Origin: a virus
Length of the DNA stretch: 64,000 nucleotides
Virus record (IMG/VR): IMGVR_UViG_3300012920_009134
Location: 35,732 to 99,731 of that record
Reading direction: 5' to 3' (one strand)
Below are positions 1 through 11,536 of the stretch, one piece after another. The notes beneath the pieces were generated by a model. The model ran no database searches. It was given only the letters and a program-made list of their open reading frames with translations, and was not told the origin of the DNA. The translations under genes were made by a program, and so were the position numbers. The stretch's first letter is position 1. Every line of letters starts with the position of its first letter.

Positions 1-222
1 TCTGGTAAACTTAAGGTAGGTTTTAGGATAGGTCGTGCAAAAAATACTTCTCTGATCATGGAAGAGGGGGATGTTATACATCTAAAACCTGGTCTTATGC
101 ATATGAGAATGGCATTAGAAGACACAATTATTATAGAATGGTCTAATAAGGATGATGATTCTGACTCGCACATCGTAGAAGATGGGAAAACATACATACA
201 CATAGATGATGAGGAAATATGA
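1..222 (+). CDS. Cupin-domain protein, 5'-truncated (sugar isomerase/epimerase-like)
   Basis: Frame 1 is open from base 1: SGKLKVGFRIG...MEEGDVIHLKPGLMHMRMALEDTIIIEWS...; GD-x-I-x-L-x-PG-x-x-H matches cupin motif 2. Its TGA overlaps the next ATG (ATGA). Not in the ORF track. Confidence 0.7.
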   Translation, partial: SGKLKVGFRIGRAKNTSLIMEEGDVIHLKPGLMHMRMALEDTIIIEWSNKDDDSDSHIVEDGKTYIHIDDEEI

Positions 223-896
223 GAAAACTATACATTGATACAGCAAATCTAAAAGATATAAAAAAGATAAACTCTTTGGGAGTAATTCAAGGAGTGACCA
301 CAAACCCCAGTCTTATCTCTAAAGAACCAAAGCAAAATTTTGATGCTCTTATTGAGGATTTGGCAAGGTTTTGCGACAAGGCAAAACTGTCTTTAAGCGT
401 CGAGGTATTTGCCTCAGAACCGGATGAAATGCTAAACCAAGCGCGTGATATCCATGCTTCTTTGACTAAGATAATCGATCCATCTTTGTTGAGGATAAAG
501 ATTCCTGTTGGGTTTGAAGAGTTGAGGGTAATAAAAGAACTGTCTGGTGATGGTATAAGCGTAAACTGCACCTGCTGTTTTACCGAACAGCAGATGCAAC
601 TTGCAGCAATGAGTGGAGCAAAGTATGTATCTCTATTTTACAGTAGATTAAGAGATACATCGGGTAACCCGTCAGAAGTGTTAAGAAGAACTAGACAGTT
701 TATCGATGATAATAATCTCGACTGTGAAATCATCGCCGGTAGCATAAGGTCTCAGGGAGATGTATCGGGTGCCTGGGCGAATGGGTGCGATATAGTAACT
801 TGTAGTACAGCGATTATTAAGAGTATGACTAGTCACCCCAAGACAGACTCTTCTGTAGAAGGGTTTTTAAAAGATTTTAACAACTGGATTAAGTGA
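219..896 (+). CDS. talC: Transaldolase, short TalC/FSA family
   Basis: YIDTA, GVTTNPSL, SVEV, Schiff-base lysine motif IKIP, YVSLF..R, GSIRS, HPKT. Confidence 0.92.
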   Translation: MRKLYIDTANLKDIKKINSLGVIQGVTTNPSLISKEPKQNFDALIEDLARFCDKAKLSLSVEVFASEPDEMLNQARDIHASLTKIIDPSLLRIKIPVGFEELRVIKELSGDGISVNCTCCFTEQQMQLAAMSGAKYVSLFYSRLRDTSGNPSEVLRRTRQFIDDNNLDCEIIAGSIRSQGDVSGAWANGCDIVTCSTAIIKSMTSHPKTDSSVEGFLKDFNNWIK

Positions 897-897
897 T

Positions 898-1224
898 ATG
901 ATTTATTGCTTTGATATTGATGGTACCGTGTGCACACCCTACAGCGGTGACTATGAAAAATCTCAACCAATAAAAGATAGAATTGAAAAGGTCAATCAAC
1001 TCTATGATGAGGGCAATACCATATTCATGCTAACTGCTAGAGGTATGGGTAGGACTGACAACGATCAGATTGGTGCTTATAAATGTATGTATACGTTCAC
1101 CGAAAACCAGCTAGACAAGTGGGGTGTTAAGTATCATAAGTTGTTTTTGGGCAAACCTAACGCAGATCTCTACATAGATGATAAGGGAATGAAAGATTTA
1201 GATTTCTTTGGTGGCGGTGAATGA
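898..1224 (+). CDS. Small HAD-family phosphatase (capsule-biosynthesis phosphatase-like)
   Basis: FDIDGT (motif I), LTARG (motif II), GKP..DLYIDDK (motifs III/IV). Confidence 0.85.
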   Translation: MIYCFDIDGTVCTPYSGDYEKSQPIKDRIEKVNQLYDEGNTIFMLTARGMGRTDNDQIGAYKCMYTFTENQLDKWGVKYHKLFLGKPNADLYIDDKGMKDLDFFGGGE

Positions 1225-2126
1225 AGGTATACATCAATAGACAACCAAAACACGGACCTTGGGGCGGAGGTGCTAAGACAGTTAATAAACTTGTAGAACT
1301 ACTACTACACAAGGGTCATACTGTTGTCTACGAACTTCAAGAAGGTATTGATGTTATCTTTTGTATGGATCCTCGACCAAATCATAGAGGCGAATGGTAT
1401 CAACATTTTTTAGATTATAGGTTTGAAAATAAAAACACTAAAATAGTGCAGCGAGTAGGGGACGTTGGTACTCACTCAAAACCACATCTAACTGATATGG
1501 TAAGGCAGACTCTACCACATTCAGATCATTTTATATTTCCTAGTAAATGGGCCAAAGAGTGGATAGGTTTCGAATCAGAAAACTTCGATATAATCAATAA
1601 TGCCCCAATGCAAATATTTTATGAAAACAGAAAACTAGACCTAAAACTATCAGAACAAGTTAGTGTTGTTACGCACCATTGGTCTACCAACCCTAAAAAG
1701 GGATTCGATATATATCAAAAATTTGAAGAATGGTGCAAGGATCAAAATATTAGTTTTCACTATATTGGACAAGTCCCACCAGGAGTTGTTTTTGAAAACT
1801 ACACAAAACCAATATCAGCAGAACAACTTTCTGTAGTTTTACCAAAACATGACATATATTTAACCGCTTCACAAGAAGAAGCGGGTGCCAACCATGTCCT
1901 GGAAGCACTTGCAGTAGGACTTCCGGTAGTTTACAGAGATACCGGAGGCAGCATAAATAACTATTGCCATCCTTATGGAGAAGAATATTCTACTTTTGAT
2001 GGTATGGTTGATAAAGTGCAGAAGGTTATAGGGCATTATGATACTTACAAAAGTGAAGTATTAAAGTATGTCGACAACAATGATAACGTTATTGAGAGAT
2101 ATTGTGACATTATAGAGAAAATCTAA
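1221..2126 (+). CDS. Glycosyltransferase, GT-B fold (GT4-like)
   Basis: WGGG N-terminal loop, IFPSKW, NPKKG, ASQEEAGANHVLEALAVGLPVV (E-x7-E motif), GG. Confidence 0.85.
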   Translation: MKVYINRQPKHGPWGGGAKTVNKLVELLLHKGHTVVYELQEGIDVIFCMDPRPNHRGEWYQHFLDYRFENKNTKIVQRVGDVGTHSKPHLTDMVRQTLPHSDHFIFPSKWAKEWIGFESENFDIINNAPMQIFYENRKLDLKLSEQVSVVTHHWSTNPKKGFDIYQKFEEWCKDQNISFHYIGQVPPGVVFENYTKPISAEQLSVVLPKHDIYLTASQEEAGANHVLEALAVGLPVVYRDTGGSINNYCHPYGEEYSTFDGMVDKVQKVIGHYDTYKSEVLKYVDNNDNVIERYCDIIEKI

Positions 2127-2127
2127 T

Positions 2128-2826
2128 ATGAAAGTTAATATAAGCATAGACGATGTAAGTCCGCACCCTTTTTCATCCACAAGAGTATTGGAGAGGTGTG
2201 GAGAATTAATAGAAGTATTTCCAGATATTAAGTTTTCTTTGTTTATTCCCCTTGCTTATTGGAGAACAATGAAATCGGGAACAACCACAGCAAAACCAAT
2301 GTACATTTCTGAGTTTCCAGAGTTCTGCGAAACTATACTTGAACTTCCAGAACAAAACTACGAGATAGGTTTTCATGGGTATTATCATGGAATCCCCGGT
2401 AAAAGTGATAATGATGAGTTTCAGTACTTGAATTATGATGACGCACTTGTTAAAATAGATCTGATGTTCGATGAGGTGGATAAGGCAGGTTTGCAGAATA
2501 AGTTTAGAAAAATATTTAGACCACCAGCGTGGCGGTTAAGTCCAGACTCATTTAAAGCACTGTCTGACAGGGGGTTTGAAGTGTTTGCATTAACTGATCT
2601 GCCTTATACAAGAGAAGTGTATGCCGGAGAAGAGGACAATCATCCATGTACTTATTCCAATCAATTTCCTCCATTTAAAGATCTACACGTAGAAGATAAA
2701 GCAGGTATTGTGTATCATGCTTGTGAGTGGGATAAGAACTTTCTTACTATAGAAAAGTCTCACGATTTAACAAACTTTCTTGAAGACAAAGAGAAAACGT
2801 TCGTATTTCTAAAGGGATTGTTGTAA
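2128..2826 (+). CDS. Polysaccharide deacetylase-like (CE4/DUF2334)
   Basis: ISIDDV, IGFHGYYH, FRPPAW, VYH. Confidence 0.8.
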   Translation: MKVNISIDDVSPHPFSSTRVLERCGELIEVFPDIKFSLFIPLAYWRTMKSGTTTAKPMYISEFPEFCETILELPEQNYEIGFHGYYHGIPGKSDNDEFQYLNYDDALVKIDLMFDEVDKAGLQNKFRKIFRPPAWRLSPDSFKALSDRGFEVFALTDLPYTREVYAGEEDNHPCTYSNQFPPFKDLHVEDKAGIVYHACEWDKNFLTIEKSHDLTNFLEDKEKTFVFLKGLL

Positions 2827-3530
2827 TGGGAATGACAGATGGGTATTTGATTCCAAAAATGCCTCAATATATAGCAAAAAAGATTAACAGTCTAGATAGT
2901 GGTTCAAGAATCGCATGGTTAGGTCAAATTCATCCTGATATGAATGACACATGTGATATGTACAAGGCAATAATGAATCTTGTTGAGGTTGAAGATTTAA
3001 GGTGTGACTTTTACGATCTGAATAATGATGACAGCATTGCTGAAAACTCTTATGTTTGGGATGTGAATACTGAATGGGATTTTACAGGTTACGATATTAT
3101 TGTTGCAGTGAGGATATTTTATGCCTGTAACTCTGCTAGTCAGTTAATAAGGAACATTAAAAAAATGGTATCTACGGAACAAAACATAGTAGGTGATTTG
3201 ATGTCCGGTAACACCGGTGCTCACATAACAAATCCAGAATCTGGTATTTATCGCCAGTATTACTCTACGATGGTAGAGGATTGTGAAGTTTTTATGAAAC
3301 CAGCAAACAGCAAGGCAATCATTCCAATGCTTCCAAAGATGTGGATTGATCATGATATCAAAAATCCTGTCGGCAAATTCGGTTTCGGTGTAAAGCAAAA
3401 CCACAAAGATCAAGTTTTGACAGAAGAGATGCTTGCAGAAAGCGGAATTAAAGTTACACCAATATCAGTTTTTAGAGAACCGACAAAATATAGAATATAT
3501 TCAATATGTGAGTTTACAAATGACGTTTAA
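2826..3530 (+). CDS. Hypothetical protein, possibly SAM-methyltransferase-like fold
   Basis: RIAWLG ... DFYDL ... WDVN ... YDIIVAVR pattern resembles class I methyltransferase strands; lies in the glycan cluster. Confidence 0.35.
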   Translation: MGMTDGYLIPKMPQYIAKKINSLDSGSRIAWLGQIHPDMNDTCDMYKAIMNLVEVEDLRCDFYDLNNDDSIAENSYVWDVNTEWDFTGYDIIVAVRIFYACNSASQLIRNIKKMVSTEQNIVGDLMSGNTGAHITNPESGIYRQYYSTMVEDCEVFMKPANSKAIIPMLPKMWIDHDIKNPVGKFGFGVKQNHKDQVLTEEMLAESGIKVTPISVFREPTKYRIYSICEFTNDV

Positions 3531-4548
3531 CTTTTTGCTTAGAGAAATGACACACCTTAGATATTTTATCCCGATTGTTGAAGAGGGTAATGCAAGAGGT
3601 GTTAAATCTAACTTCTATATCACGCATTCTGGAAAGTATAACTGCCCAACAATCCACCGTGATTTTCTTAACAAAATCAAAAAAAAATATAACATCGGAA
3701 CTCTTGAAGAGTATGATCTAGAGTCTATCGAGGGATTTTGGTTTGCAAACGAATCATCTGGTTTAGATATAACAAAAAAAGTTGCAACGCAAAAAAGCGC
3801 GAAAGTAATCATCACAACATATCAAACAGATTTTACACAGTGCTATCCCAAATATTCAGCAATAGCAGATTACATTATGATGCCAAGTGAGAAAGTTGCT
3901 CAGTACTATAACCTTGAAGGTGAAAAAAATATTTATGTTGGTATACCAAAGTATGATATAGAAATTGACTCAAGTAAGGTGTTGGAAAAGTATGGACTTG
4001 ATCTCAACAGAAAGAAAGTTCTACTTATGTGGCCAAAGTCAAGAGATCTGGCAAAGTTTCCTATTGATATAATAAGTAACTTCCAACAGTTAGGGTGGCA
4101 AGTTTTAGTAAAGGCAAGAGGAAAGGATCCAATATCTAAAAATACGGCAAACTACTTATTGTCTGGTGGACATAAGTTTTTTTACGATGGTTGGTTTCCA
4201 CACACTTCGCAAGAACTTTTGGAAGTGAGTGATTTAGTCGTAAACTGTGGATCTACAACGATTGAAGAATGTGTTATGCACGAAGTTCCTTTAATCAATT
4301 TCGATATAAAACCGGAAGTACGTCATGGCAAAAAACAAAAACACAGAGTGACTCATGATTATTTGTACAACTATAAATTCTGTATAAACATTCCATCGCT
4401 TAATAAAAACTTTAACACCGCAATGTTAAACGCCATGATTCAATCGCTACTACAGAAAGATCTAAAATCAGAGTTTAAAAAGTGTAAGCAAGAATGGTTG
4501 TATGATCATAAAAATACTTGTAAAAACTTATTAGATATGATACTATAG
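3520..4548 (+). CDS. GT-B transferase of the CDP-glycerol glycerophosphotransferase / surface-carbohydrate biosynthesis type; candidate nonulosonate transferase
   Basis: VGIPKYD, KKVLLMWP, SDLVVNCGSTTIEECVMHEVPLINF. Start moved to ATG 3520 (ORF track starts at 3433). Directly upstream of neuA/neuB. Confidence 0.6.
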   Translation: MTFNFLLREMTHLRYFIPIVEEGNARGVKSNFYITHSGKYNCPTIHRDFLNKIKKKYNIGTLEEYDLESIEGFWFANESSGLDITKKVATQKSAKVIITTYQTDFTQCYPKYSAIADYIMMPSEKVAQYYNLEGEKNIYVGIPKYDIEIDSSKVLEKYGLDLNRKKVLLMWPKSRDLAKFPIDIISNFQQLGWQVLVKARGKDPISKNTANYLLSGGHKFFYDGWFPHTSQELLEVSDLVVNCGSTTIEECVMHEVPLINFDIKPEVRHGKKQKHRVTHDYLYNYKFCINIPSLNKNFNTAMLNAMIQSLLQKDLKSEFKKCKQEWLYDHKNTCKNLLDMIL

Positions 4549-4552
4549 TGGC

Positions 4553-5104
4553 ATGAAAGTTGTTGCTATTATACCTGCTCGTGGTGGTTCTAAAAGACTT
4601 CCAAGAAAAAATATATATCCTATCTGGGGAAAACCAATGCTCTATTGGTCTGTCTTGGCAGCAAAGCAAAGTAGATACATTGATGAAGTGTGGGTAACCA
4701 CAGAAGATAAAGAAATAAAGAAAGTTGCTCTAGAATGCGGTGCCCGAGTTCACGATAGGGATCCGATACTGTCTGGTGACAAGGTATATAAGATGGAAGC
4801 AATAAGAAGTTGTTTCGGTGATATTGATAACGGAGAGGATATAGTTATTTCATTACAGGCAAACTCTCCCGAAATGACCGGCGAAATACTTGACAGTGCC
4901 ATTGATTCTTTTATACAAAACGATAGACACGAGTTATTGAGCGTTTCGCCAAACCTTATGCAGAATGCTGCTTTCAGAATTATGAAATCTTGGTATGTCT
5001 TTCAGAAAGATCTAAGTACCAAGTGCGGTGTGTTTGTTTGTGATATACACGACGTTCATACAAAGGAGGATATTGAGATGATAGAAGAGAGGACCAACCG
5101 ATGA
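4553..5104 (+). CDS. neuA: CMP-nonulosonate (acylneuraminate) cytidylyltransferase
   Basis: AIIPARGGSKRLPRKN, VTTED, LQANSP, DVHTKED. Confidence 0.92.
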   Translation: MKVVAIIPARGGSKRLPRKNIYPIWGKPMLYWSVLAAKQSRYIDEVWVTTEDKEIKKVALECGARVHDRDPILSGDKVYKMEAIRSCFGDIDNGEDIVISLQANSPEMTGEILDSAIDSFIQNDRHELLSVSPNLMQNAAFRIMKSWYVFQKDLSTKCGVFVCDIHDVHTKEDIEMIEERTNR

Positions 5105-5814
5105 AGATTATTGTAGATCTTTGTAACCAACATTTTGGAAGTCTAGAAGAGTTAAAAAGAATGTCTTTGAATGCTTTTCTTTCTGGCGCTGATGCTGTAA
5201 AAATTCAACTTTTAGATTCTGAAAAACTATTAGGCACAACAGAAAAAAAGTATAGAGATATTTGCTTTCAAGATGCTTACGAGTTGTCAAAATATTGTGA
5301 TGACATTGGCATTGAGTTTATGGCATCTGTATTCGATGCAGAGAGATTTGAGTGGTTGGAAGATCTTGGAGTTCAAATGCACAAGATAGCTAGCAGAACA
5401 TCAAGGCGCGATAAGGCACTGTCCGAACTTATACTTTCAGATGGAAAACCCACAATCATATCAACAGGTATGCATGATTTTGCAGAGTTTCCATTTGGAC
5501 ACTCTGATCAGATTGAATATTTGTTCTGTGTATCCAAATATCCTACATATCTAGATGATGAAAAACTAGCAAAAATGCCGCATTTTAAGCGCCCTGGTTA
5601 CTCTGGGTACAGTGACCATACGATTGGCATCGCGGCAGCGTTACGCGCCCATTCTCGCGGCGCTACGATACTAGAAAAGCATTTTTCTAATAACCTTGGT
5701 GCCCAAACAAGACTGGAAGGCGGGCACATAGGGTCTTTTGATCAGGACTCATTAAGAAACTTTGTTAATATCGTAAAACAATTTGAGATTATGGAGAAGA
5801 AAAGTGAGTATTAG
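5101..5814 (+). CDS. neuB: Nonulosonic acid (N-acetylneuraminate-type) synthase, no C-terminal SAF domain
   Basis: NQHFGS, GADAVKIQ, SVFD, KIAS, IISTGM, CVSKYPT, GYSDHT, LEKHF. Confidence 0.9.
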   Translation: MKIIVDLCNQHFGSLEELKRMSLNAFLSGADAVKIQLLDSEKLLGTTEKKYRDICFQDAYELSKYCDDIGIEFMASVFDAERFEWLEDLGVQMHKIASRTSRRDKALSELILSDGKPTIISTGMHDFAEFPFGHSDQIEYLFCVSKYPTYLDDEKLAKMPHFKRPGYSGYSDHTIGIAAALRAHSRGATILEKHFSNNLGAQTRLEGGHIGSFDQDSLRNFVNIVKQFEIMEKKSEY

Positions 5815-6430
5815 GAATCCTGATGTATCGGTCATCATCACAAACTATAACTACGAAAAGTATATTGCTCGCGCTGTCAGGAGTTGTTTGAACCAATCTC
5901 ATGTTAATCATGAAGTTATAGTTGTTGATGATTGTAGCACCGACGATTCTGTAAAGACCTTAAATCCATTCAAGGAACAGGTTAAAATTATTTCTACTGG
6001 GACTAATGGTGGCGTTGCTGTTGCTGCAAATATGGGAGTTAGAGAAGCGAGAGGTCAGTTTTTTATTCGTGTTGATGCAGACGATTACGTTAACTCTGAT
6101 ATGTGTTATATGATGAAAACATACCTTGAGGCAAATCACGATGCCTTTTGTGTGTCATGTGATTATCTTATGGTAGATAACTTTGAAAACACACTAGAAA
6201 GGAAGTATGCAGAAGTAGAAAATATATCATGCGGCATCATGTACCGAAGAGATCCTTTCCTCGCAGTTGGCGGGTACAACAACAAAATGAGACACAGAGA
6301 GGAAGAGGAACTTCGAAAAAGATTGGGACAAGACTATAAAATACATCATTTGAAGATTCCGTTTTATAGATATAGGATGCATAACACAAACAAAACAAAA
6401 GAACCAGAATACAAAACGTGGGAGATATGA
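5804..6430 (+). CDS. Glycosyltransferase family 2
   Basis: VSVIITNYN, VVDDCSTD, RVDADD (DxD). Start inferred at GTG 5804 after GGAGA. Confidence 0.9.
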   Translation: MSIRNPDVSVIITNYNYEKYIARAVRSCLNQSHVNHEVIVVDDCSTDDSVKTLNPFKEQVKIISTGTNGGVAVAANMGVREARGQFFIRVDADDYVNSDMCYMMKTYLEANHDAFCVSCDYLMVDNFENTLERKYAEVENISCGIMYRRDPFLAVGGYNNKMRHREEEELRKRLGQDYKIHHLKIPFYRYRMHNTNKTKEPEYKTWEI

Positions 6431-6433
6431 AAG

Positions 6434-7120
6434 ATGAGTAAAAAGATTTTTATTACAGGGTGTGCAAAATCAGGCACCACATTGTTACTGAGAATGTGTT
6501 ATGCATTCAAGGACACGGAAGTTTTATACAGAGAGGGGTTTGACGGACACGAACTACCATTCAATGATTTCGTTGATCATAAAAGTGAAAACAAGTTTAT
6601 TATTGGAAAGAGACACCCACCAGCACTTTTGAGTAACGTGTTGATTCCTGAATTCGCTGAACAGGCAGCAACCGTTATTTCACAAGACATTGCGATTATA
6701 AATGTTGTTAGGGATGGACGAGATGTAGTGCTCTCTGATGGCAACTATGTAAAACCAAGAAGATGGATCGATACTGTGAAACAGAGAGATAAAGAAGTGT
6801 TCGGTGCTTTGATCGATTTAGAAGTCAGGTATGAAGATTTAGTTAGAAATCCAGAGAAGATTCAAAAACAAATGGAAGAGTTGTTTGGATTGGAGTCGGA
6901 ACATAGTTTTGCAAAATATCCAGAGTACGTAGAAGATTGGGTCTACGAGTGGAATGTTTCTGTATTGGGTCGTGCAGGCAAGGGAAATGATTCTGATTAT
7001 GGTAAACGAAAGTTGAGTGACAAAGGTGTTGGCAAAGACCCAGAAGCATATAAGGACATATGTTCAGAACTGGAACTTCCTGAGTTTGAAAAATGTTTGA
7101 AGGAGTTGAGATACATATGA
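6434..7120 (+). CDS. PAPS-dependent sulfotransferase
   Basis: 5'-PSB loop IFITGCAKSGTTLL, 3'-PB motif VRDGRDVVLS, VRYEDLV.NP. Confidence 0.88.
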   Translation: MSKKIFITGCAKSGTTLLLRMCYAFKDTEVLYREGFDGHELPFNDFVDHKSENKFIIGKRHPPALLSNVLIPEFAEQAATVISQDIAIINVVRDGRDVVLSDGNYVKPRRWIDTVKQRDKEVFGALIDLEVRYEDLVRNPEKIQKQMEELFGLESEHSFAKYPEYVEDWVYEWNVSVLGRAGKGNDSDYGKRKLSDKGVGKDPEAYKDICSELELPEFEKCLKELRYI

Positions 7121-7986
7121 GAGCATTGGTTACAGGTCATGAAGGATACATTGGCGGTAATTTTGTAAAAGAATGGGTGAAGAGAGGTCATGAGTATCTT
7201 GGATATGATATGAAGAATAATCATGAGTTTGATCTCTCAAAAAGAATAAAAGAACTTTACATTAATCACAAAAACAAACCTATTGATGTTGTGATACATT
7301 TTGCTGCTATACCGAGAGTTGCTTTTAGTGTAGAACAACCAGTTTATGTTATGAATAACAATATAAACTCGACAACTAGAGTGTTGAATTGGGCAAAAAA
7401 AGAAAATATCCCAGTTGTTTATAGTTCGTCTTCTTCTGTTGTCGGTAACGGAACTGGTCCCGCTAGTCCATACGCGCTGTCTAAGTATGTTGGAGAAATG
7501 GAGACCATACTGTATAATCAGTTATATGGTCTTAAGACTGTAGCGTTGAGATATTTTAATGTCTATTCTTACGACCAACAGGCAGACAGTGAGTATGCCA
7601 CTGTTGTATGCAATTGGAAAAAGTTCATTACAGAGGGTCGGACTCCTTTTATTACCGGTGATGGAGAGCAGAGGAGAGACATGACTCATGTTGACGATAT
7701 CGTTTCAGCAAATATTTTCTGCGCAGAGAACATTGATAATGATGAACTTTGGGGGCACTGGTATGATATTGGATCTGGTGAAAACATTTCTTTAAATGAA
7801 TTGAAAGAAATTGTGTTACAATATTTCCCAGAGCAAAGATTTGACTATATAGACCCCAGACCAGGAGATGTAATGTATACTGAGGCAGATTTGTCTAAGT
7901 TCAAAGCACATGGGTGGGAAAGCAAGGTACGACTTCAAGAAGGTCTAAATCTTGTTTATAAGACATTAAAAGAGGAGTTGGGATAA
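7117..7986 (+). CDS. NAD-dependent nucleotide-sugar epimerase/dehydratase (extended SDR)
   Basis: VTGHEGYIG, HFAA, SSSSV, YALSK (YxxxK), RYFNVY, GDGEQRRD, RPGD. Start ATG 7117. Confidence 0.92.
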   Translation: MRALVTGHEGYIGGNFVKEWVKRGHEYLGYDMKNNHEFDLSKRIKELYINHKNKPIDVVIHFAAIPRVAFSVEQPVYVMNNNINSTTRVLNWAKKENIPVVYSSSSSVVGNGTGPASPYALSKYVGEMETILYNQLYGLKTVALRYFNVYSYDQQADSEYATVVCNWKKFITEGRTPFITGDGEQRRDMTHVDDIVSANIFCAENIDNDELWGHWYDIGSGENISLNELKEIVLQYFPEQRFDYIDPRPGDVMYTEADLSKFKAHGWESKVRLQEGLNLVYKTLKEELG

Positions 7987-8852
7987 TGAAGTTAGGTATT
8001 ATTGGAAATGGTTTTGTTGGTAACGCAATTGCACATGCTTTTATTCCATGCATGGAGGTAAAGATATATGACAAAAATCCAGATAAGTGCTTTAACGAAC
8101 TTGCTGATGTTGTTAATGATTCAGATGTGGTGTTCATATCGGTTCCAACCCCAATGACTCAAGAGGGGTTGATAGACTTGTCGATTGTACATGGCGTCTT
8201 TGAGGAAATCGAGTCTGTCAAGACTAATGAATCTAGACCTATTTTTGTTTTAAAATCAACAGTTGTACCAGGTACTACGAGAAAAATAAAACAAAAACAT
8301 CCCAATTTGCAGATCGTTTTTAATCCTGAGTTTTTGACAGAGCGACATGCTCGATTCGACTTTTTGAATCAAAGCAGGATTGTTCTTGGTTTTGAGGAGG
8401 ATCTTCAACCTGGACAAAGAAATCTTACAGTTGATAAGGTTAAGAAACTGTATGATCTTAGGTTTTCTGGAAACAACTTTATTACAACAAATTACGAGAC
8501 GGCAGAAATGATTAAGTATTTTAATAACCTCTTTTTTGCGGTAAAGGTATCTTTTATGAACGAAATGAAGTTAGTTGCAGACAAACTTGAAACAGTAAAC
8601 TGGGACAAGGCGGTAAGGGGTTTTGTTTCGGATGGGCGCGTGGGAGATTCGCATTTGCAAGTCCCTGGTCCAGATGGTAAGTGTGGTTTTGGTGGTTCGT
8701 GTTTCCCTAAAGATATAAACGCATTCATGACATTTGCTGATTCTATTGGATTAGATTTGGCAGTGTTGAAGGGTGCGTGGAAAACAAATCTAAATGTAAG
8801 ACCAGAGAAAGACTGGGAAAATCTAAAAGGAAGGGCAATATCGGATGACTAA
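7986..8852 (+). CDS. ugd: UDP-glucose/GDP-mannose dehydrogenase family, lacking the C-terminal domain
   Basis: GIIGNGFVG, SVPTP, KSTVVPGT, NPEFL, AEMIKY..N, GFGGSCFPKD (catalytic Cys). Confidence 0.9.
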   Translation: MKLGIIGNGFVGNAIAHAFIPCMEVKIYDKNPDKCFNELADVVNDSDVVFISVPTPMTQEGLIDLSIVHGVFEEIESVKTNESRPIFVLKSTVVPGTTRKIKQKHPNLQIVFNPEFLTERHARFDFLNQSRIVLGFEEDLQPGQRNLTVDKVKKLYDLRFSGNNFITTNYETAEMIKYFNNLFFAVKVSFMNEMKLVADKLETVNWDKAVRGFVSDGRVGDSHLQVPGPDGKCGFGGSCFPKDINAFMTFADSIGLDLAVLKGAWKTNLNVRPEKDWENLKGRAISDD

Positions 8853-9243
8853 AAGAGCAATGTTTATTGGTAGATGGCAACCATTTCATAATGGCCATAA
8901 GTGGTTGATTAACCAAAAACTAGGAGAAGGCAAACCAATCTTGATCGCGGTTAGGGATATCCCACCAGATGAAAAGAATCCGTTTACGACGGAGCAAACT
9001 GTAGAAATGATACAAAAGGTATACAGTGAACAAGATGTGGAGGTAGTTTGTATCCCAGACATTGAAAGTGTTAACTGGGGTCGTGGCGTTGGGTATGGAC
9101 TTAACGAGCACGTACCACCACAGAACATTGGATTCATTTCGGCAACAGGAATCAGAAACAACATCAAGGATGGTGTGGATTCTTGGCGAGAAAACGTAGA
9201 TCCGTCCATCCAAGAGATGGTCGTAAGGTATTTAGGAGAATAA
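8845..9243 (+). CDS. Small HxGH-type nucleotidyltransferase (cytidyltransferase-like); candidate sulfate adenylyltransferase
   Basis: GRWQPFHNGH, NPF, WGRGVGY, ISATGIR; ends 2 bp before APS kinase. Confidence 0.75.
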   Translation: MTKRAMFIGRWQPFHNGHKWLINQKLGEGKPILIAVRDIPPDEKNPFTTEQTVEMIQKVYSEQDVEVVCIPDIESVNWGRGVGYGLNEHVPPQNIGFISATGIRNNIKDGVDSWRENVDPSIQEMVVRYLGE

Positions 9244-9244
9244 A

Positions 9245-9787
9245 GTGAGCGGTATTTTTATACAAATGACAGGAATGAGCGGTGCTGGTAAGTCTACTAT
9301 GACTTTTCTTGCACAAACCAGACTCAGAGAAATGGGTCACAATGTAGAGGTGATTGATGGTGATGAGTATAGGGAAGGATTATGTAAGGATTTGGGATTT
9401 TCAAAAGAAGACAGGAATACGAATATTAGGAGATTGTCTTTCGTTGGGAAGGTGTTGTCTAGAAATGATGTGGTGTGTATAATGTCCGCTATAAATCCAT
9501 ACGACAGCGTCAGGAGAGAAGTTCAAGCAAACAATCCCTTGTCCAAAATAGTGTATGTTAAGTGTGAAATAGACACACTGATAGATAGAGATCCAAAAGG
9601 ACTATATCGAAGAGCACTTTTGCCAAAGGGTGATCCTGACCACATTCCAAATTTTACAGGTATTTCGGATCCTTTCGAGGTTCCAAAGAATGCAGACTTG
9701 GTTATTGATACAGAAAAGCAAACTGTAGATAAATCAGTTGATGTGTTGGTGGATTTTATATTAAAAAACTTAGGAGAAAAAAAATGA
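9245..9787 (+). CDS. cysC: Adenylylsulfate (APS) kinase
   Basis: TGMSGAGKST, IDGD, LGFSKEDRNTNIRR, RDPKGLY, NFTGISDPFEVP. Confidence 0.95.
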   Translation: MSGIFIQMTGMSGAGKSTMTFLAQTRLREMGHNVEVIDGDEYREGLCKDLGFSKEDRNTNIRRLSFVGKVLSRNDVVCIMSAINPYDSVRREVQANNPLSKIVYVKCEIDTLIDRDPKGLYRRALLPKGDPDHIPNFTGISDPFEVPKNADLVIDTEKQTVDKSVDVLVDFILKNLGEKK

Positions 9788-9984
9788 AATTATCAAATCA
9801 AGCATTGGGTGCTATTATGTTGGCGTTGCAAAACTCTTTAATGAAACAGACAGATATTGTTCCAGTGTTGAGAGATTTTGATTTAATGTTGGGGGAAAAT
9901 GAGGAGATTATTGTTCTTAATCCGCCAACCTTAGATGCTAGTGATATGCCCGTTGAAAATAAAAACACAGTTGGGAGCGACTAG
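9784..9984 (+). CDS. Small hypothetical protein
   Basis: AGGAG ribosome-binding site; overlaps both neighbours. Confidence 0.7.
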   Translation: MKLSNQALGAIMLALQNSLMKQTDIVPVLRDFDLMLGENEEIIVLNPPTLDASDMPVENKNTVGSD

Positions 9985-10238
9985 TGCCAATTTATCAATA
10001 TCTTTGTTTAGATTGCAAAAAATCTTTTAACGCATTTCACTCTATGAACAAAGAATATGAGGGTACTTGCGGGTTTTGTGAATCTGGCAATGTTGAAAAG
10101 GTCATATCAGACATTTCAGGTATTGTAAGTGAAGATAGGTTTGAGACAAAAGCGGGTGATCTAGTAAAATCTCACATTGAAGAGGCAAAACAGGACATTA
10201 GAAAACAAAAGAAAGAAATGAAAAGAGGGTTCGAATGA
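9984..10238 (+). CDS. FmdB-like zinc-ribbon protein
   Basis: MPIYQYLCLDC...CGFC.S..VEKVIS. Confidence 0.8.
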   Translation: MPIYQYLCLDCKKSFNAFHSMNKEYEGTCGFCESGNVEKVISDISGIVSEDRFETKAGDLVKSHIEEAKQDIRKQKKEMKRGFE

Positions 10239-10540
10239 TATTGGAAATACTTTTAGTTGTATTTGCTATTTTAATTTTATTTTTAGGATTTTATTCTGTC
10301 AGACTTGCTAGAAGGTTGTTTGTTGTTGGCACCAATCTTGAAGCAGTATACAATATTATATACGCTTTTCGTGCACATGTTGAACAGATCCACGAATCAG
10401 AAATGTTTTATGGGGACATGACGCTTAAATCGTTGATAGATCATTCTAAAGAAGTGTTAGATGAACTCGATAAATATGAAGATTTAATGCAAATCGTAGA
10501 ATCAGAACAGGTTGGAGAGGATGCCGAAGAAGAAGAATAA
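10235..10540 (+). CDS. Membrane-anchored hypothetical protein
   Basis: N-terminal hydrophobic helix, acidic C-terminus. Confidence 0.65.
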   Translation: MILEILLVVFAILILFLGFYSVRLARRLFVVGTNLEAVYNIIYAFRAHVEQIHESEMFYGDMTLKSLIDHSKEVLDELDKYEDLMQIVESEQVGEDAEEEE

Positions 10541-11216
10541 AAATTATTATTTCACTAGTGTGCACGAAGAAGCAATAGTGGAATACTGCTCTACTGAATC
10601 TAGAGATGAAAGAGAGAAGTTATATATAAATTACATACAACCCGCCTTTAGTGAGATGGTTGATAAGATTATCTACACTTACAAGTTCACTAACATACCC
10701 AATATCGATGTTCTCAAGGATGATTGCAAGGTTTGGTTGACAACTATCCTTAGCAAATACGACCCCAATAGAGGATCGAAAGCATTTTCATATTTTTCGG
10801 TTATTACAAAACACTGGTTTATACATCAACTTAAAAAGAACTCTACCAAAATTAAAAGAGAAGTTGCATATGAAGAGATTGTAAAAGAAAACCAGCACGA
10901 AAGATTGATATACAATGATGATACGTATTTGAGAGAAAGACAGAAAGCAGAGTTTTGGTATCACTTAAAAGGTGAGGTTGATAGGTGGGCAGATTCTAAT
11001 CTCTTTACAAAAGACAACGAAAAGAAAGTCATCCAAGCAGTAAAGATTTTGCTTGAGAGTGTGCAAGATATAGAAATCTTAAACAAAAAGGCGGTATATT
11101 TGTACCTCCGCGAAATGACTGGATTGAAAACTAAACAGATTGTAAATACACTAAACAAGATGAGGACTAGATATAAGTTCTTTATTTTAAAATATGATCG
11201 CGGAGATAAATTTTAG
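10521..11216 (+). CDS. Phage sigma factor, T4 gp55 (late sigma)-like
   Basis: YYFT..., KYDPNRGSKAFSYFSVITKHWFIHQLKK resembles the gp55 region-2 pattern (FDP...FAYFTQI...F...IKK); HTH-like C-terminus. Start inferred at ATG 10521. Confidence 0.7.
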   Translation: MPKKKNKNYYFTSVHEEAIVEYCSTESRDEREKLYINYIQPAFSEMVDKIIYTYKFTNIPNIDVLKDDCKVWLTTILSKYDPNRGSKAFSYFSVITKHWFIHQLKKNSTKIKREVAYEEIVKENQHERLIYNDDTYLRERQKAEFWYHLKGEVDRWADSNLFTKDNEKKVIQAVKILLESVQDIEILNKKAVYLYLREMTGLKTKQIVNTLNKMRTRYKFFILKYDRGDKF

Positions 11217-11222
11217 AAATTG

Positions 11223-11229
11223 ATATTTA
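11223..11229 (+). promoter_or_regulatory. Candidate late-promoter motif ATATTTA
   Basis: In the 17-bp spacer after the sigma gene, at the head of the structural block. Confidence 0.4.
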
Positions 11230-11233
11230 GATT

Positions 11234-11536
11234 ATGGAAAAAGATTTAGACAAATACCTAGAAGATGCAACAAGAAATGTGACAGAAGATCGCGCCGCGA
11301 CAAAAGTCTTGTTAACCAACATAATGAAATACATGCAGTCGACTGATGATAGACACAGGGAAGTCGGATTGATAGCGGCAAAATATTTAGAAACACTTCA
11401 GAGATCTAACGAACAGTTGGTTAAGATTGCATCATTAGTTCAGAAAGCAACTAAATCTAGTCTTGATAACTCTATCAGTGATGATGAGAAGGATGAGTTA
11501 TTTGATTTAATCAATAACAACACTGAGGAAGACTGA
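11234..11536 (+). CDS. Helical hypothetical protein (weak resemblance to T4-type terminase small subunit)
   Basis: All-helical, 100 aa, YLETLQRSNEQLVKIA; preceded by TATTTA. Confidence 0.35.
   Translation: MEKDLDKYLEDATRNVTEDRAATKVLLTNIMKYMQSTDDRHREVGLIAAKYLETLQRSNEQLVKIASLVQKATKSSLDNSISDDEKDELFDLINNNTEED

What the first reader, a model, noticed from the sequence alone, without database searches (positions are those of the whole stretch)
1..9787. Phage-encoded pathway for a sulfated, nonulosonate (sialic-like) containing glycan
Seen: at least 15 consecutive, mostly overlap-coupled genes covering sugar precursors (cupin, transaldolase, HAD, epimerase, UDP-sugar dehydrogenase), nonulosonate synthesis and activation (NeuB, NeuA), three transferases, and tailoring (deacetylase, sulfotransferase, APS kinase). 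The cluster is co-directional with and just upstream of the late sigma and baseplate genes, and shares the genome's AGCY-poor composition. Known: such sets build capsule/LPS/flagellar glycans in bacteria and fibril glycans in giant viruses. Inference: the phage autonomously makes a sulfated, acidic glycan, either to coat the virion or to remodel the host surface.
Basis: partly seen in the sequence, partly recalled or inferred. Interest (0 to 1): 0.85.

Follow-up and report, generated by a model that had tools for sequence, protein, structure and literature searches.

The report
Variable glycan-building island in marine phage
An uncultured marine T4-like phage carries a 19-kb block of 24 soluble sugar-building enzymes, including sialic-acid-like and sulfation steps, that differs between related phages much as O-antigen loci differ between bacteria. 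What the glycan is attached to remains unknown.

Summary
Window 1-9787 carries 15 co-directional, overlap-coupled glycan genes, and the cluster runs 9.1 kb further upstream: 24 genes, 18.9 kb, 8 glycosyltransferases. It is true phage DNA: it shares the genome's roughly 15-fold RGCY depletion, and the same island sits between the same flanking genes in seven other viral contigs. Content between those flanks varies in modules (8-22 kb).

Modules here:
- a GmhA-less NDP-heptose-like pathway plus a GT9 transferase;
- a GT-B transferase with a short NeuA and a short NeuB that lacks the SAF domain;
- GT2 plus a PAPS-type sulfotransferase, confirmed by motifs and fold;
- an SDR plus a UDP-sugar-dehydrogenase-like protein that lacks its UDP-binding domain;
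- a 132-aa nucleotidyltransferase plus APS kinase.

"Autonomous" is overstated. No enzyme here makes NeuB's substrate, and there is no canonical ATP sulfurylase. The 132-aa enzyme neighbours APS kinase in 35 of 42 viral loci and is fused to it in others, so it is a candidate minimal sulfurylase.

No protein has a transmembrane helix, and no flippase or priming transferase was found. The acceptor is unresolved: a virion protein is slightly favoured, and host envelope remodelling is a serious rival. Other first-stage notes on this genome had already flagged these ideas. I class it as a new variant of a known kind.

The parts
1..222 (+). C-terminal part of a 163-aa cupin whose ORF starts 269 nt before the window. 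Best match is a PMI-type sugar-phosphate isomerase. Candidate stand-in for GmhA in the heptose-like module.
   Evidence: Pfam Cupin_1/Cupin_2/MannoseP_isomer. NCBIfam GMP_PMI isomerase part, 1e-6. Travels with the module in L010, L011, L078, G005 and G006.
219..896 (+). Transaldolase / fructose-6-phosphate aldolase (TalC/FSA type, 225 aa). Inferred role: supply of sedoheptulose-7-phosphate.
   Evidence: PF00923 4e-41. TIGR00875 4e-47, below its cut-off. Part of the conserved six-gene module.
898..1224 (+). Small HAD-IIIA phosphatase (108 aa). GmhB-like step of the module.
   Evidence: TIGR01689 capsule biosynthesis phosphatase 1.6e-11, and HAD-SF-IIIA. Conserved in L010, L011, L079, G005 and G006.
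1221..2126 (+). GT4-type glycosyltransferase (301 aa).
   Evidence: PF13692/PF00534 just above the gathering scores. 61% identical in L004.
2128..2826 (+). DUF2334 protein (232 aa), a polysaccharide-deacetylase-fold family. Candidate de-N/O-acetylase.
   Evidence: PF10096 7.6e-12. Present in L004 and G006, absent in L006.
2826..3530 (+). 234-aa protein, possibly a class I SAM methyltransferase (lead only).
   Evidence: No Pfam, NCBIfam or PDB hit. Atlas feature neighbours include Methyltransf_11/23 clusters at 0.93-0.95.
3520..4548 (+). GT-B fold transferase (342 aa; the listed ORF 3433-4548 starts too early). Always next to NeuA. Candidate CMP-sugar transferase.
   Evidence: Atlas structure neighbours TagF-like (TM 0.79) and LpxB (0.73). 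Profile hit only to a GT28-type UgtP, 0.007. 104 homologues of about 340 aa, mostly on viral or marine contigs.
4553..5104 (+). Short CMP-nonulosonate synthetase-like cytidylyltransferase (NeuA-like, 183 aa).
   Evidence: PF02348 1.4e-23, profile positions 1-119 of 217. Best solved relatives are NeuA/CMP-sialate synthetases (1e-18) rather than KdsB (1e-7).
5101..5814 (+). Short NeuB-family synthase (237 aa): TIM barrel only, no SAF domain.
   Evidence: PF03102 5.7e-36. Active-site motifs align with PseI 8h2c and NeuB 1xuu. Family of more than 120 clusters of about 235 aa on contigs up to 197 kb.
5783..6430 (+). GT2 glycosyltransferase (215 aa). Among the best conserved island genes (70-92% identity in relatives) and always followed by the sulfotransferase.
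   Evidence: PF00535 1.3e-31. Synteny.
6434..7120 (+). PAPS-dependent sulfotransferase (228 aa). Acceptor unknown.
   Evidence: PF13469/PF00685 above the gathering scores. Invariant 5'-PSB (GxxxSGTT) and 3'-PB (IRDGRD..S) motifs. The profile hits only sulfotransferases in the PDB. Model pLDDT 92, and every listed Foldseek match is a sulfotransferase.
7093..7986 (+). SDR sugar-nucleotide epimerase/dehydratase (297 aa). Paired with the next gene.
   Evidence: PF01370 3.8e-43. Best NCBIfam hits heptose_epim 3e-28 and TviC 2e-25, both below cut-offs. Co-occurs with the short dehydrogenase in L004, L008, L181, G005 and G006.
7986..8852 (+). UDP-glucose/GDP-mannose dehydrogenase-like protein (288 aa) that lacks the UDP-binding C-terminal domain.
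   Evidence: PF03721 plus PF00984 only. GGSCFPKD catalytic-Cys motif aligned to BceC 2y0e; the protein ends about 20 residues after the aligned stretch. 84% identical at full length in L004.
8845..9243 (+). 132-aa HIGH-motif nucleotidyltransferase ('NT132'). Candidate minimal sulfate adenylyltransferase working with APS kinase.
   Evidence: PF01467. Adjacent to APS kinase in 35 of 42 viral loci, in both gene orders. Fused to a full APS kinase in L188, L194 and L196. Fold: NMNAT Z 13.2, ATP sulfurylase 1v47 Z 9.7.
9245..9787 (+). APS kinase (CysC, 180 aa).
   Evidence: PF01583 9e-43. TIGR00455 165.4 bits against a cut-off of 138.7.
9784..11536 (+).
   Evidence: Conserved in this order in L004, L006, L007, G005, G006, G007 and G009. 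PF09723 Zn_ribbon_8. TM prediction.

Best explanation
The finding is the downstream half of a 24-gene, 18.9-kb island of soluble enzymes in an uncultured marine T4-like myovirus.

Proposed donors. The island makes or completes several activated donors:
1. An NDP-heptose-like sugar through a GmhA-less route. Transaldolase, RpiB and AraD-like feed sedoheptulose-7-P. A PMI-type cupin or RpiB isomerises it. A PfkB kinase, a HAD phosphatase and an HldC-like nucleotidyltransferase activate it. A GT9 enzyme transfers it.
2. A CMP-nonulosonate, made by a SAF-less NeuB and a short NeuA from a hexosamine precursor that the host must supply.
3. Probably a uronic-acid donor, from the SDR and the truncated dehydrogenase.
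4. PAPS, from APS kinase and, as I propose, the 132-aa nucleotidyltransferase acting as a minimal sulfate adenylyltransferase.

Proposed assembly. Eight glycosyltransferases, one or two methyltransferases, a deacetylase-fold protein and a PAPS sulfotransferase assemble and tailor an acidic glycoconjugate in the cytoplasm. They do so without a lipid-carrier priming enzyme, a flippase or a polymerase. Two GT4 enzymes at the left edge are conserved in all relatives and may prime a conserved acceptor. The genes between them and the right flank are swapped in modules between related phages, so the outer glycan differs from phage to phage, like a serotype locus.

My preferred acceptor is a phage structural protein (about 40%). 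The confidence given here is for the biosynthetic reading as a whole, not for the acceptor.

Shown: gene content, motif and fold identities, modular variability at a fixed locus, purifying selection, and the absence of membrane proteins. Inferred: every substrate, the product, the acceptor, and the sulfurylase role.
For: Gene identities.

Phage residency:
- RGCY is depleted in the island (9 observed, 155 expected) as in the rest of the genome (65, 730), and tetranucleotide correlation is 0.96-0.98 for every 9.45-kb chunk.
- The same flanks (PhoH, PD-(D/E)XK nuclease, GT4, GT4 ... 66-aa protein, Zn ribbon, p101, p234) bracket an island in all eight viral records. All four left-flank genes were seen in five of them (G003, G005, G006, G007, G009); L006 shows only the second GT4 and L004 none, because those loci end there. 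The variable part is 8.4-22 kb.

Modules:
- The six-gene heptose-like block is absent from L004 and L006. It is present as a unit in L010 and L011. L079 lacks the cupin, and L078 lacks the HAD and has the cupin and PfkB on the opposite strand.
- No GmhA-type SIS protein was found in G000, or in G004, which is 100% complete and carries the module.
- L007 has a canonical PseB/aminotransferase/formyltransferase/NeuB+SAF/NeuA set at the same locus. G006 has Epimerase_2.

Function retained:
- NeuB motifs and the dehydrogenase Cys motif are kept.
- The sulfotransferase keeps both PAPS motifs and has the sulfotransferase fold.
- dN is 0.05-0.35 and dS is saturated or above 1 for all 11 genes tested.

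PAPS pair: adjacency in 35 of 42 loci in both gene orders, APS kinase::NT fusions, and structural likeness to ATP sulfurylase at Z 9.7 with 22% identity.

Cytoplasmic assembly:
- No 19-residue hydrophobic window reaches 1.6 in any of the 24 proteins.
- No Bac_transf or Wzx was found in G000 or four relatives, two of them 100% complete.

Link to structural genes: there is no intergenic gap of 25 nt or more from 12.6 kb upstream of the window to window 44204. The island and the baseplate genes therefore form one co-directional array.
Against: - No donor, product or acceptor is demonstrated.
- All pathway enzymes score below NCBIfam equivalog cut-offs, except APS kinase and, marginally, the AraD-like protein (258.4 bits against a 257-bit subfamily cut-off).
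- NeuB, NeuA and the dehydrogenase each lack a domain or region present in characterised enzymes, so they may have different chemistry.
- The sulfotransferase's nearest solved relatives sulfate protein tyrosine, not sugars.
- NT132 is closer in sequence and fold to NMN adenylyltransferase and PPAT than to ATP sulfurylase. In Xylella phage Bacata a kinase-NT fusion sits beside a gene annotated 'COG3236 / GTP cyclohydrolase II', which from my own knowledge is the NADAR family, and there is no sulfotransferase nearby. That hints at NAD metabolism.
- GT9, heptose and a Kdo/sialate-like CMP sugar are hallmarks of the LPS inner core, whose enzymes are also soluble or peripheral. The lack of membrane proteins therefore does not exclude a host lipid acceptor.
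- The downstream giant proteins have no recognisable glycosylation-related domains.
Confidence: 0.55

Rival explanations
1. Host envelope remodelling. The island rebuilds the infected cell's LPS core, O-chain or capsule on host lipid acceptors. Host MsbA/Lpt or capsule exporters carry the product out. The effect is to block superinfection by competing phages or to prevent progeny from re-adsorbing.
For: GT9, a heptose-type pathway and a CMP-ulosonate activating enzyme are the classic LPS inner-core toolkit. This is the published reading of the glycosyltransferase-, rfaE- and UDP-glucose-dehydrogenase-containing hypervariable island of pelagimyophages and cyanomyophages (PMC7029224). Core glycosyltransferases are soluble or peripheral, so the lack of TM helices fits. 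Variability between phages could track host LPS types.
Against: No experimental case is known to me of a lytic phage building host LPS with a cluster of this size. No lipid-carrier priming transferase or flippase is encoded. The island is embedded in the structural gene array with no promoter-sized gaps. Two GT4 enzymes are conserved in all relatives while the rest varies, which suits a conserved phage acceptor at least as well.
Confidence: 0.3
2. DNA hypermodification. Some or all modules glycosylate modified bases in phage DNA to evade restriction. The isomerase, kinase, HAD phosphatase, NTase and GT logic is the same as in known phage arabinosyl and heptosyl DNA pathways.
For: Phage gene clusters that put heptose, hexose or up to trisaccharides on 5hmC, and arabinose on 5-hydroxycytosine, use an isomerase, kinase, HAD phosphatase, nucleotidyltransferase and GT-B enzymes (10.1101/2023.12.21.572611; PMC13326640). 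The genome is under strong restriction pressure, shown by RGCY avoidance.
Against: No thymidylate-synthase-type hydroxymethylase or hydroxylase is found in G000, or in two 100%-complete relatives, one of which carries the heptose-like module. Strong site avoidance suggests the DNA is not fully protected by modification. Eight glycosyltransferases, a sulfotransferase and a nonulosonate pathway far exceed any known DNA glycan. The TET/JBP search was uninformative because the control did not ring.
Confidence: 0.05
3. Not one pathway. The block is a co-located set of independent auxiliary metabolic genes: talC/RpiB for pentose-phosphate flux, CysC for sulfur assimilation, NT132 as an NMN adenylyltransferase for NAD, and assorted glycosyltransferases. 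There is no common product.
For: talC is a well-known stand-alone cyanophage auxiliary gene (my own knowledge). NT132 is most like NMNAT. Modules are gained and lost independently.
Against: The transaldolase is lost and gained together with the kinase, NTase, HAD and cupin as a unit, also in unrelated contigs. CysC and NT132 sit beside a PAPS-consuming sulfotransferase here and in L186. All 24 genes are translationally coupled, with the largest spacer 13 nt. Every relative has sugar genes, and only sugar genes, at this locus.
Confidence: 0.08
4. Assembly chimera or host DNA mis-joined to a phage contig.
For: The gene content looks bacterial. The record is a linear fragment with a CheckV completeness of 12%.
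Against: The island shares the genome's extreme RGCY depletion and its tetranucleotide profile. The same island between the same phage flanks occurs in seven other independent viral contigs from other samples. An identical NeuB lies on a 148-kb contig.
Confidence: 0.01

Closest known systems
Hypervariable 'host recognition cluster' of pelagimyophages and cyanomyophages (Zaragoza-Solas et al. 2020, PMC7029224)
   Same: A marine T4-like myovirus has a non-syntenic island inside the structural region. It is rich in glycosyltransferases and LPS-type sugar genes (rfaE, UDP-glucose dehydrogenase), and its function is untested.
   Different: This is a different lineage: the portal is at most 43% identical to any GenBank phage. 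The flanks differ too (PhoH/nuclease/GT4 ... Zn ribbon/p234). The content includes NeuB/NeuA, a PAPS sulfotransferase, APS kinase and a GmhA-less heptose-like module, none of which that paper mentions. The terms sialic and sulfotransferase have zero occurrences there.
Giant-virus (Megavirinae, chlorovirus) autonomous glycosylation clusters for capsid fibrils
   Same: Virus-encoded, clade-specific gene clusters make rare bacterial-type sugars and assemble them in the cytoplasm onto virion proteins (PMC10117803, PMC9614988).
   Different: Those are eukaryotic viruses with glycans demonstrated on fibrils. Here the host is a bacterium and no glycan has been observed.
Virion glycosylation of mycobacteriophages
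   Same: Phage glycosyltransferase genes near structural genes glycosylate capsid and tail proteins. I did not read the primary paper; the papers listed refer to it.
   Different: Those phages carry two to four glycosyltransferases and use host donors. Here there are 24 genes with their own donor synthesis, a nonulosonate pathway and sulfation.
Bacterial O-antigen, capsule and flagellin-glycosylation loci (neuABC, pse/leg; ADP-heptose hldE-gmhB-hldD-waaC)
   Same: The enzyme families and modular logic are the same, and variable content sits between conserved flanks.
   Different: There is no Wzx/Wzy, ABC transporter or priming phosphoglycosyltransferase, and no GmhA. The enzymes are domain-minimised: NeuB without SAF, the dehydrogenase without its UDP domain, and a 183-aa NeuA.
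Bifunctional PAPS synthases (metazoan PAPSS; Sat-CysC and CysNC fusions)
   Same: An adenylyltransferase of the HIGH superfamily is paired with, or fused C-terminally to, APS kinase. The fusions in L188, L194 and L196 have the PAPSS domain order.
   Different: The phage partner is only about 130 aa. It lacks a PF01747 match and resembles archaeal NMNAT and PPAT more than ATP sulfurylase. Its activity is untested.

Membership tests
NeuB family nonulosonate synthases (Neu5Ac/Pse/Leg synthases) | NeuB TIM-barrel domain (PF03102) above the gathering score | tested here: met
   124.6 bits against 22.1.
NeuB family nonulosonate synthases (Neu5Ac/Pse/Leg synthases) | Conserved active-site and metal-ligand motifs (KIQ, KIAS/KIGS, STG, xxYP, SDH, E[KR]HF) | tested here: met
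   All are aligned to PseI 8h2c and NeuB 2wqp/1xuu.
NeuB family nonulosonate synthases (Neu5Ac/Pse/Leg synthases) | C-terminal SAF/antifreeze-like domain that closes the neighbouring subunit's sugar site | tested here: not met
   The protein ends at residue 237 with no SAF hit. The whole roughly 235-aa family lacks it, whereas the L007 homologue has it.
NeuB family nonulosonate synthases (Neu5Ac/Pse/Leg synthases) | Equivalog-level score assigning the product (Neu5Ac or Pse) | tested here: not met
   NeuB_NnaB 110 bits against 400; PseI 98 against 340.
CMP-nonulosonate/Kdo cytidylyltransferases (PF02348) | N-terminal CTP-binding region above the gathering score, closest to CMP-sialate synthetases | tested here: met
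   84.3 bits against 22.6. NeuA structures at 1e-18, KdsB at 1e-7.
CMP-nonulosonate/Kdo cytidylyltransferases (PF02348) | Full-length domain including the sugar-binding and dimerisation half | tested here: inconclusive
   Only profile positions 1-119 of 217 align. The protein is 183 aa, against about 220-250 aa for characterised enzymes.
PAPS-dependent sulfotransferases | 5'-phosphosulfate-binding loop and 3'-phosphate-binding motif | tested here: met
   Invariant G9, G14, T16 and R93, G95, D97 across 44 family members. PF13469/PF00685 above the gathering scores.
PAPS-dependent sulfotransferases | Sulfotransferase fold | tested here: met
   Model pLDDT 92. Every listed Foldseek match is a sulfotransferase, with the best TM-score 0.57 to TPST1.
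PAPS-dependent sulfotransferases | A carbohydrate acceptor, needed for the 'sulfated glycan' claim | not testable with these tools
   Only gene context (GT2-ST pair). The nearest solved relatives act on protein tyrosine.
APS kinase (CysC) | Equivalog-domain score | tested here: met
   TIGR00455 165.4 bits against 138.7.
ATP sulfurylase (Sat, PF01747; or CysDN) | Family HMM match anywhere in the record or in close relatives | tested here: not met
   No PF01747 match, and no PF01507 match above its cut-off, in G000-G004.
ATP sulfurylase (Sat, PF01747; or CysDN) | NT132 shares the catalytic-domain fold and its HxxH / GRD-like / ISxT-R motifs | tested here: inconclusive
   1v47 Z 9.7 with 22% identity, 3cr8 Z 8.5, 2gks Z 8.3, but NMNAT Z 13.2 and PPAT Z 12.4. 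Invariant GRxQPxHxGH, GRxVGY and SxTxIR.
UDP-glucose/GDP-mannose 6-dehydrogenases | NAD-binding and central domains with the catalytic Cys | tested here: met
   PF03721 plus PF00984. GGSCFPKD is aligned.
UDP-glucose/GDP-mannose 6-dehydrogenases | C-terminal UDP/GDP-binding domain | tested here: not met
   288 aa, ending about 20 residues after the aligned stretch. The subfamily score is 175 against 190. The same length is conserved in L004.
ADP-heptose pathway (GmhA, HldA/HldE-I, GmhB, HldC/HldE-II, HldD, GT9) | HldA-like PfkB kinase, HldC-like nucleotidyltransferase, HAD phosphatase and GT9 transferase clustered together | tested here: met
   rfaE_dom_I 1.8e-26, rfaE_dom_II 5.5e-37, HAD-IIIA, PF01075. 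All are below equivalog cut-offs.
ADP-heptose pathway (GmhA, HldA/HldE-I, GmhB, HldC/HldE-II, HldD, GT9) | GmhA (SIS) sedoheptulose-7-P isomerase | tested here: not met
   No PF13580 match in G000, G004 (100% complete), G005, G006 or G010. RpiB and a PMI-type cupin are present instead.
Wzx/Wzy- or ABC-dependent surface polysaccharide loci | Priming phosphoglycosyltransferase, flippase or transporter; membrane proteins | tested here: not met
   No PF02397 or PF01943 match in five records. No TM helix in the 24 island proteins. WecA-type PF00953 and ABC transporters were not searched.
Phage DNA glycosylation systems | Base hydroxymethylase/hydroxylase (thymidylate synthase homologue, or TET/JBP) | tested here: inconclusive
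   No PF00303 match in five records, two of them complete. The PF12851 control did not ring. G000 itself is a fragment.

The most novel reading that the evidence does not exclude
Two linked claims. First, the 132-aa HIGH nucleotidyltransferase is a previously unrecognised minimal sulfate adenylyltransferase. Together with CysC, as a separate or fused protein, it forms a compact viral PAPS synthase. Second, the island uses that PAPS and a domain-minimised NeuB/NeuA pair to decorate virion proteins with sulfated, nonulosonate-bearing glycans. The composition of these glycans varies between related marine phages like a serotype. This would be a bacteriophage counterpart of giant-virus fibril glycosylation.
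Probability: 0.25. Interest if true: 0.85.

Novelty: new variant of a known kind. Interest (0 to 1): 0.62.

Why it matters
Glycan-gene islands in marine myophages have been noticed before, but they have been treated as generic 'LPS genes' with an assumed role in altering the host surface.

This locus shows a richer chemistry: a nonulosonate, a heptose-like sugar, uronate-type enzymes, methylation and PAPS-dependent sulfation. It also shows a clean genetic architecture, with conserved flanks and priming transferases around swappable modules. That makes the question of what these phages glycosylate, and why it diversifies, directly testable.

It also yields three widespread families of domain-minimised enzymes:
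- a NeuB without its SAF domain;
- a UDP-sugar dehydrogenase without its nucleotide-sugar domain;
- a 132-aa adenylyltransferase coupled or fused to APS kinase.

Their activities would be of biochemical interest. The last could be a new route to PAPS. That would matter if the hosts lack sulfate assimilation, which I did not examine.

NeuB homologues occur in only 3 of 50,697 GenBank phage records, none from a cultured phage, and this sulfotransferase occurs in none.

Tried and rejected
- **Near relatives in GenBank phages.** Megablast of the island and of 20 kb of structural genes found no match. The phage has no close sequenced isolate.
- **NeuC in disguise.** I considered that the GT-B protein at 3520-4548 is a divergent UDP-GlcNAc 2-epimerase. 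I rejected this as the main reading. Its family profile hits only a GT28-type transferase. G006 carries both it and a true Epimerase_2.
- **Kdn route** (cupin PMI makes Man-6-P, then NeuB, then HAD). I considered it because of the cupin and HAD genes. It is weakened because L004 and L006 keep the same short NeuB without the cupin or HAD, and instead carry a PIG-L deacetylase and a formyltransferase, which imply an N-acylated substrate.
- **Octose or pentose products** for the six-gene module cannot be excluded. I prefer heptose because the kinase, NTase and GT9 best hits are all heptose enzymes, and because G005 and G006 keep GT9-NTase-PfkB-HAD-cupin without RpiB, AraD or the transaldolase.
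- **SDR as HldD.** This is uncertain. The SDR travels with the short dehydrogenase rather than with the heptose module.
- **T4-type late promoter.** A search for TATAAATA found no copy in the record.
- **'Late sigma'.** The 234-aa protein gave no HMM hit.
- **Giant downstream proteins** gave no Pfam domains.
- **Sulfotransferase near the distant NT132-APS kinase pairs.** An HMM of this sulfotransferase family found it only in close relatives, within 4 kb either side. One other locus, L186, has a different Sulfotransfer_3 protein.
- **ATP sulfurylase in the Foldseek list.** It is absent from the listed Foldseek matches for NT132 (ranks 1-50) but appears with VIA-align.

Full report
**Where the window lies.** The window is bases 35732-99731 of a 99.7-kb linear IMG/VR virus record. 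The terminase, portal and baseplate wedge genes identify a distant T4-like myovirus. Its portal is at most 43% identical to any GenBank phage; the best matches are Microcystis phage Mel-JY01 and the Flavobacterium 'immuto' phages. Megablast finds no near relative. Relatives in IMG/VR are 175-193 kb when judged 95% complete or more. Many homologues come from Tara Oceans and other marine samples.

**The observation.** Window 1-9787 holds 15 consecutive + strand genes. Most junctions overlap by 1-4 nt, and the largest spacer is 4 nt. The full gene list and corrections are in the observation check.

- The third 'transferase' (true start near 3520) has a GT-B fold resembling TagF, LpxB and GT28 enzymes.
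- The 234-aa protein at 2826-3530 is at best methyltransferase-like.
- Three enzymes are shorter than their characterised relatives:
  - NeuB has only the TIM barrel, with its catalytic and metal motifs intact, and no SAF domain.
  - NeuA matches only the N-terminal half of the profile, and resembles CMP-sialate synthetases far more than KdsB.
  - The dehydrogenase keeps the GGSCFPKD catalytic motif but lacks the UDP-binding domain.
- These are not decay products. The same lengths recur in relatives at 66-84% identity. dN is 0.05-0.35 while dS is saturated or above 1. The short NeuB defines more than 120 sequence clusters.

**The cluster is twice as long as the finding.** Reading the record upstream adds GT4 (422 aa), GT4 (695 aa), GT2, GT4, a methyltransferase, GT9, an RpiB::HldC-like fusion, an HldA-like PfkB kinase, an AraD-like class II aldolase/epimerase, and the start of the cupin gene. 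The island therefore has 24 genes in 18.9 kb. None of its proteins has a predicted membrane helix.

**It is phage DNA.** RGCY tetranucleotides are depleted about 17-fold in the island (9 observed, 155 expected) and about 11-fold elsewhere (65, 730). Every 9.45-kb chunk has the same tetranucleotide profile. The same island lies between the same phage genes in seven other viral contigs from other samples.

**A fixed locus with swappable content.**
- The left flank is PhoH(PIN), a PD-(D/E)XK nuclease, GT4 and GT4. All four genes were seen in five of the seven other records (G003, G005, G006, G007, G009). The L006 locus shows only the second GT4, and the L004 locus begins past the flank.
- The right flank is a 66-aa protein, a Zn ribbon, a 101-aa membrane protein, a 234-aa protein and a 100-aa protein. 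It is present in all seven.
- The stretch between the flanks measures 8.4-22 kb and differs by whole modules:
  - L004 lacks the heptose-like block. It carries a GDP-mannose 4,6-dehydratase, an extra GT4, and a PIG-L deacetylase and formyltransferase between NeuA and NeuB.
  - L006 also lacks the SDR and dehydrogenase pair.
  - L007 has a canonical PseB-like dehydratase, aminotransferase, formyltransferase, full-length NeuB+SAF and NeuA.
  - G006 adds a carbamoyltransferase, an FkbM methyltransferase, a GDSL esterase, a formyltransferase and a true UDP-GlcNAc 2-epimerase.
- This pattern resembles bacterial O-antigen and capsule loci.

**The heptose-like module.** The RpiB::NTase, PfkB, AraD-like, cupin, transaldolase and HAD genes recur as a unit in two other viral contigs, L010 and L011. 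L011 lies in a 284-kb record judged 100% complete.
- They recur with variations in contigs binned to Taylorbacteria (L078: no HAD, and the cupin and PfkB on the opposite strand) and Woesearchaeota (L079: no cupin).
- The best family hits are the two halves of HldE, a HAD-IIIA phosphatase and GT9.
- No GmhA-type SIS isomerase exists in any of these records.
- G005 and G006 keep only GT9, NTase, PfkB, HAD and cupin.
- I therefore read the PMI-type cupin as the isomerase that replaces GmhA. S7P to heptose-7-P is the seven-carbon analogue of F6P to Man-6-P. I read the transaldolase, RpiB and AraD-like proteins as suppliers of substrate. This is inference; an octose or pentose product is not excluded.

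**The nonulosonate module.** The GT-B, NeuA and NeuB genes are syntenic in G000, L004, L006, G005 and G006. This phage encodes no enzyme for a NeuB substrate. Epimerase_2 is absent from G000, G001, G002 and G005. The pathway therefore depends on a host precursor. The PIG-L and formyltransferase genes in relatives suggest an N-acylated sugar rather than Kdn. The identity of the acid is unknown.

**The sulfation module.**
- The 228-aa protein belongs to a family of roughly 210-230-aa proteins with invariant PAPS-binding motifs. Its profile hits only sulfotransferases in the PDB. A confident model matches only sulfotransferases, closest to tyrosylprotein sulfotransferase. The enzyme class is firm; the acceptor is not.
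- CysC passes its NCBIfam cut-off.
- No Sat or CysD was found in five records.
- The 132-aa nucleotidyltransferase overlaps the dehydrogenase gene and ends 2 nt before cysC.
- Its homologues neighbour an APS kinase in 35 of 42 viral loci, in both gene orders and with kinases only 31-39% identical to this one.
- In three loci, L188, L194 and L196, it is fused behind a full APS kinase domain. L194 lies on a 494-kb contig, and L199, on a 371-kb contig, shows the same gene arrangement. This is the domain order of animal PAPS synthase.
- Its model (pLDDT 90.7) is most like archaeal NMNAT (Z 13.2) and PPAT. It also aligns to ATP sulfurylase catalytic domains (Z 9.7, 22% identity).
- I put about 55-60% on a sulfate adenylyltransferase role. 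The main alternative is NAD metabolism. A shorter kinase-NT fusion in Xylella phage Bacata lies beside a gene annotated 'COG3236 / GTP cyclohydrolase II', which from my own knowledge is the NADAR family, and hints that way.

**What is glycosylated.** The records hold no priming phosphoglycosyltransferase and no Wzx, and the island has no membrane proteins. Assembly must therefore occur on a cytoplasmic or inner-leaflet acceptor.
- For a phage protein: the island lies in a 57-kb uninterrupted co-directional array that runs into the baseplate genes. Two GT4 enzymes are conserved in every relative while the rest varies. There are also the precedents of mycobacteriophages and giant viruses.
- For the host envelope: the LPS-core flavour (GT9, heptose, CMP-ulosonate) and the published reading of comparable islands in pelagimyophages.
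- DNA glycosylation uses similar donor logic. However, no base hydroxymethylase is present in complete relatives, and the gene set is far too large for any known DNA glycan.
- My estimates: phage protein about 40%, host envelope about 30%, DNA about 5%, and other or mixed for the remainder.

**Novelty.** Glycan islands in marine myophages and autonomous glycosylation in giant viruses are known. New here are the nonulosonate and sulfation content, the fixed-locus modular architecture in this lineage, the GmhA-less module and the minimised enzymes. NeuB homologues occur in 3 of 50,697 GenBank phage records, none cultured. This sulfotransferase occurs in none. My literature searches found no report of a phage NeuB or sulfation cluster.

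**Earlier notes.** Other first-stage notes on this genome had already raised the 19-kb extent, the GmhA-less pathway, the minimal sulfurylase idea and the RGCY avoidance. I tested these partly or fully.

Noticed in passing
window 1-64000 (whole record): RGCY tetranucleotides are avoided across the whole genome: 74 observed against about 885 expected from base composition, while RGCR, YGCY and YGCR are at or above expectation. RGCY is the CviJI-type recognition pattern (my own knowledge). This suggests long exposure to a host restriction enzyme of that specificity.
   Followed up: partly
from 12.6 kb upstream of the window to window 44204: About 57 kb of co-directional genes has no intergenic gap of 25 nt or more. 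The stretch runs from PhoH through the glycan island into the baseplate and giant-protein genes. The T4 late promoter consensus TATAAATA does not occur in the record.
   Followed up: partly
window 14702-23242, 27724-39600, 40649-44203, 44237-47620: Four very large ORFs (2846, 3958, 1184 and 1127 aa) around the baseplate wedge gene have no Pfam domain. They are possible fibres or decoration proteins, and candidate glycan acceptors.
   Followed up: partly
L188:3452-4396, L194:3422-4390, L196:3476-4348; L208:3599-4339: Single ORFs fuse a full APS kinase to the 132-aa-type nucleotidyltransferase in uncultured phage contigs; L194's contig is 494 kb. Cultured Casjensviridae phages (Xylella phage Bacata and relatives) carry a shorter kinase-NT fusion annotated 'adenylylsulfate kinase', next to a COG3236 gene.
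   Followed up: partly
L078 (Taylorbacteria MAG contig), L079 (Woesearchaeota MAG contig): Most of the six-gene RpiB::NTase-PfkB-AraD-cupin-transaldolase-HAD module also occurs on contigs binned to CPR bacteria and DPANN archaea (L078 lacks the HAD, L079 the cupin). These may be mis-binned viral contigs, or the module may be shared with those lineages.
   Followed up: no
Its function is open.
   Followed up: partly
G000 record; P0001: CheckV rates the 99.7-kb record as only 12% complete, although relatives rated 95-100% complete are 175-193 kb. An identical NeuB sits on a 148-kb contig, so a longer assembly of this phage exists.
   Followed up: no
L204/L205 (G009 contig ends): In G009 (190 kb, rated 100% complete) the island locus spans the contig ends, and the PD-(D/E)XK gene is cut at base 1. 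This fits a circularly permuted genome.
   Followed up: no
L170:3048-5385: In another lineage the order is APS kinase (with a HAD-like tail), the 132-aa nucleotidyltransferase, then UDP-GlcNAc 2-epimerase. This again links the pair to hexosamine or nonulosonate chemistry.
   Followed up: no
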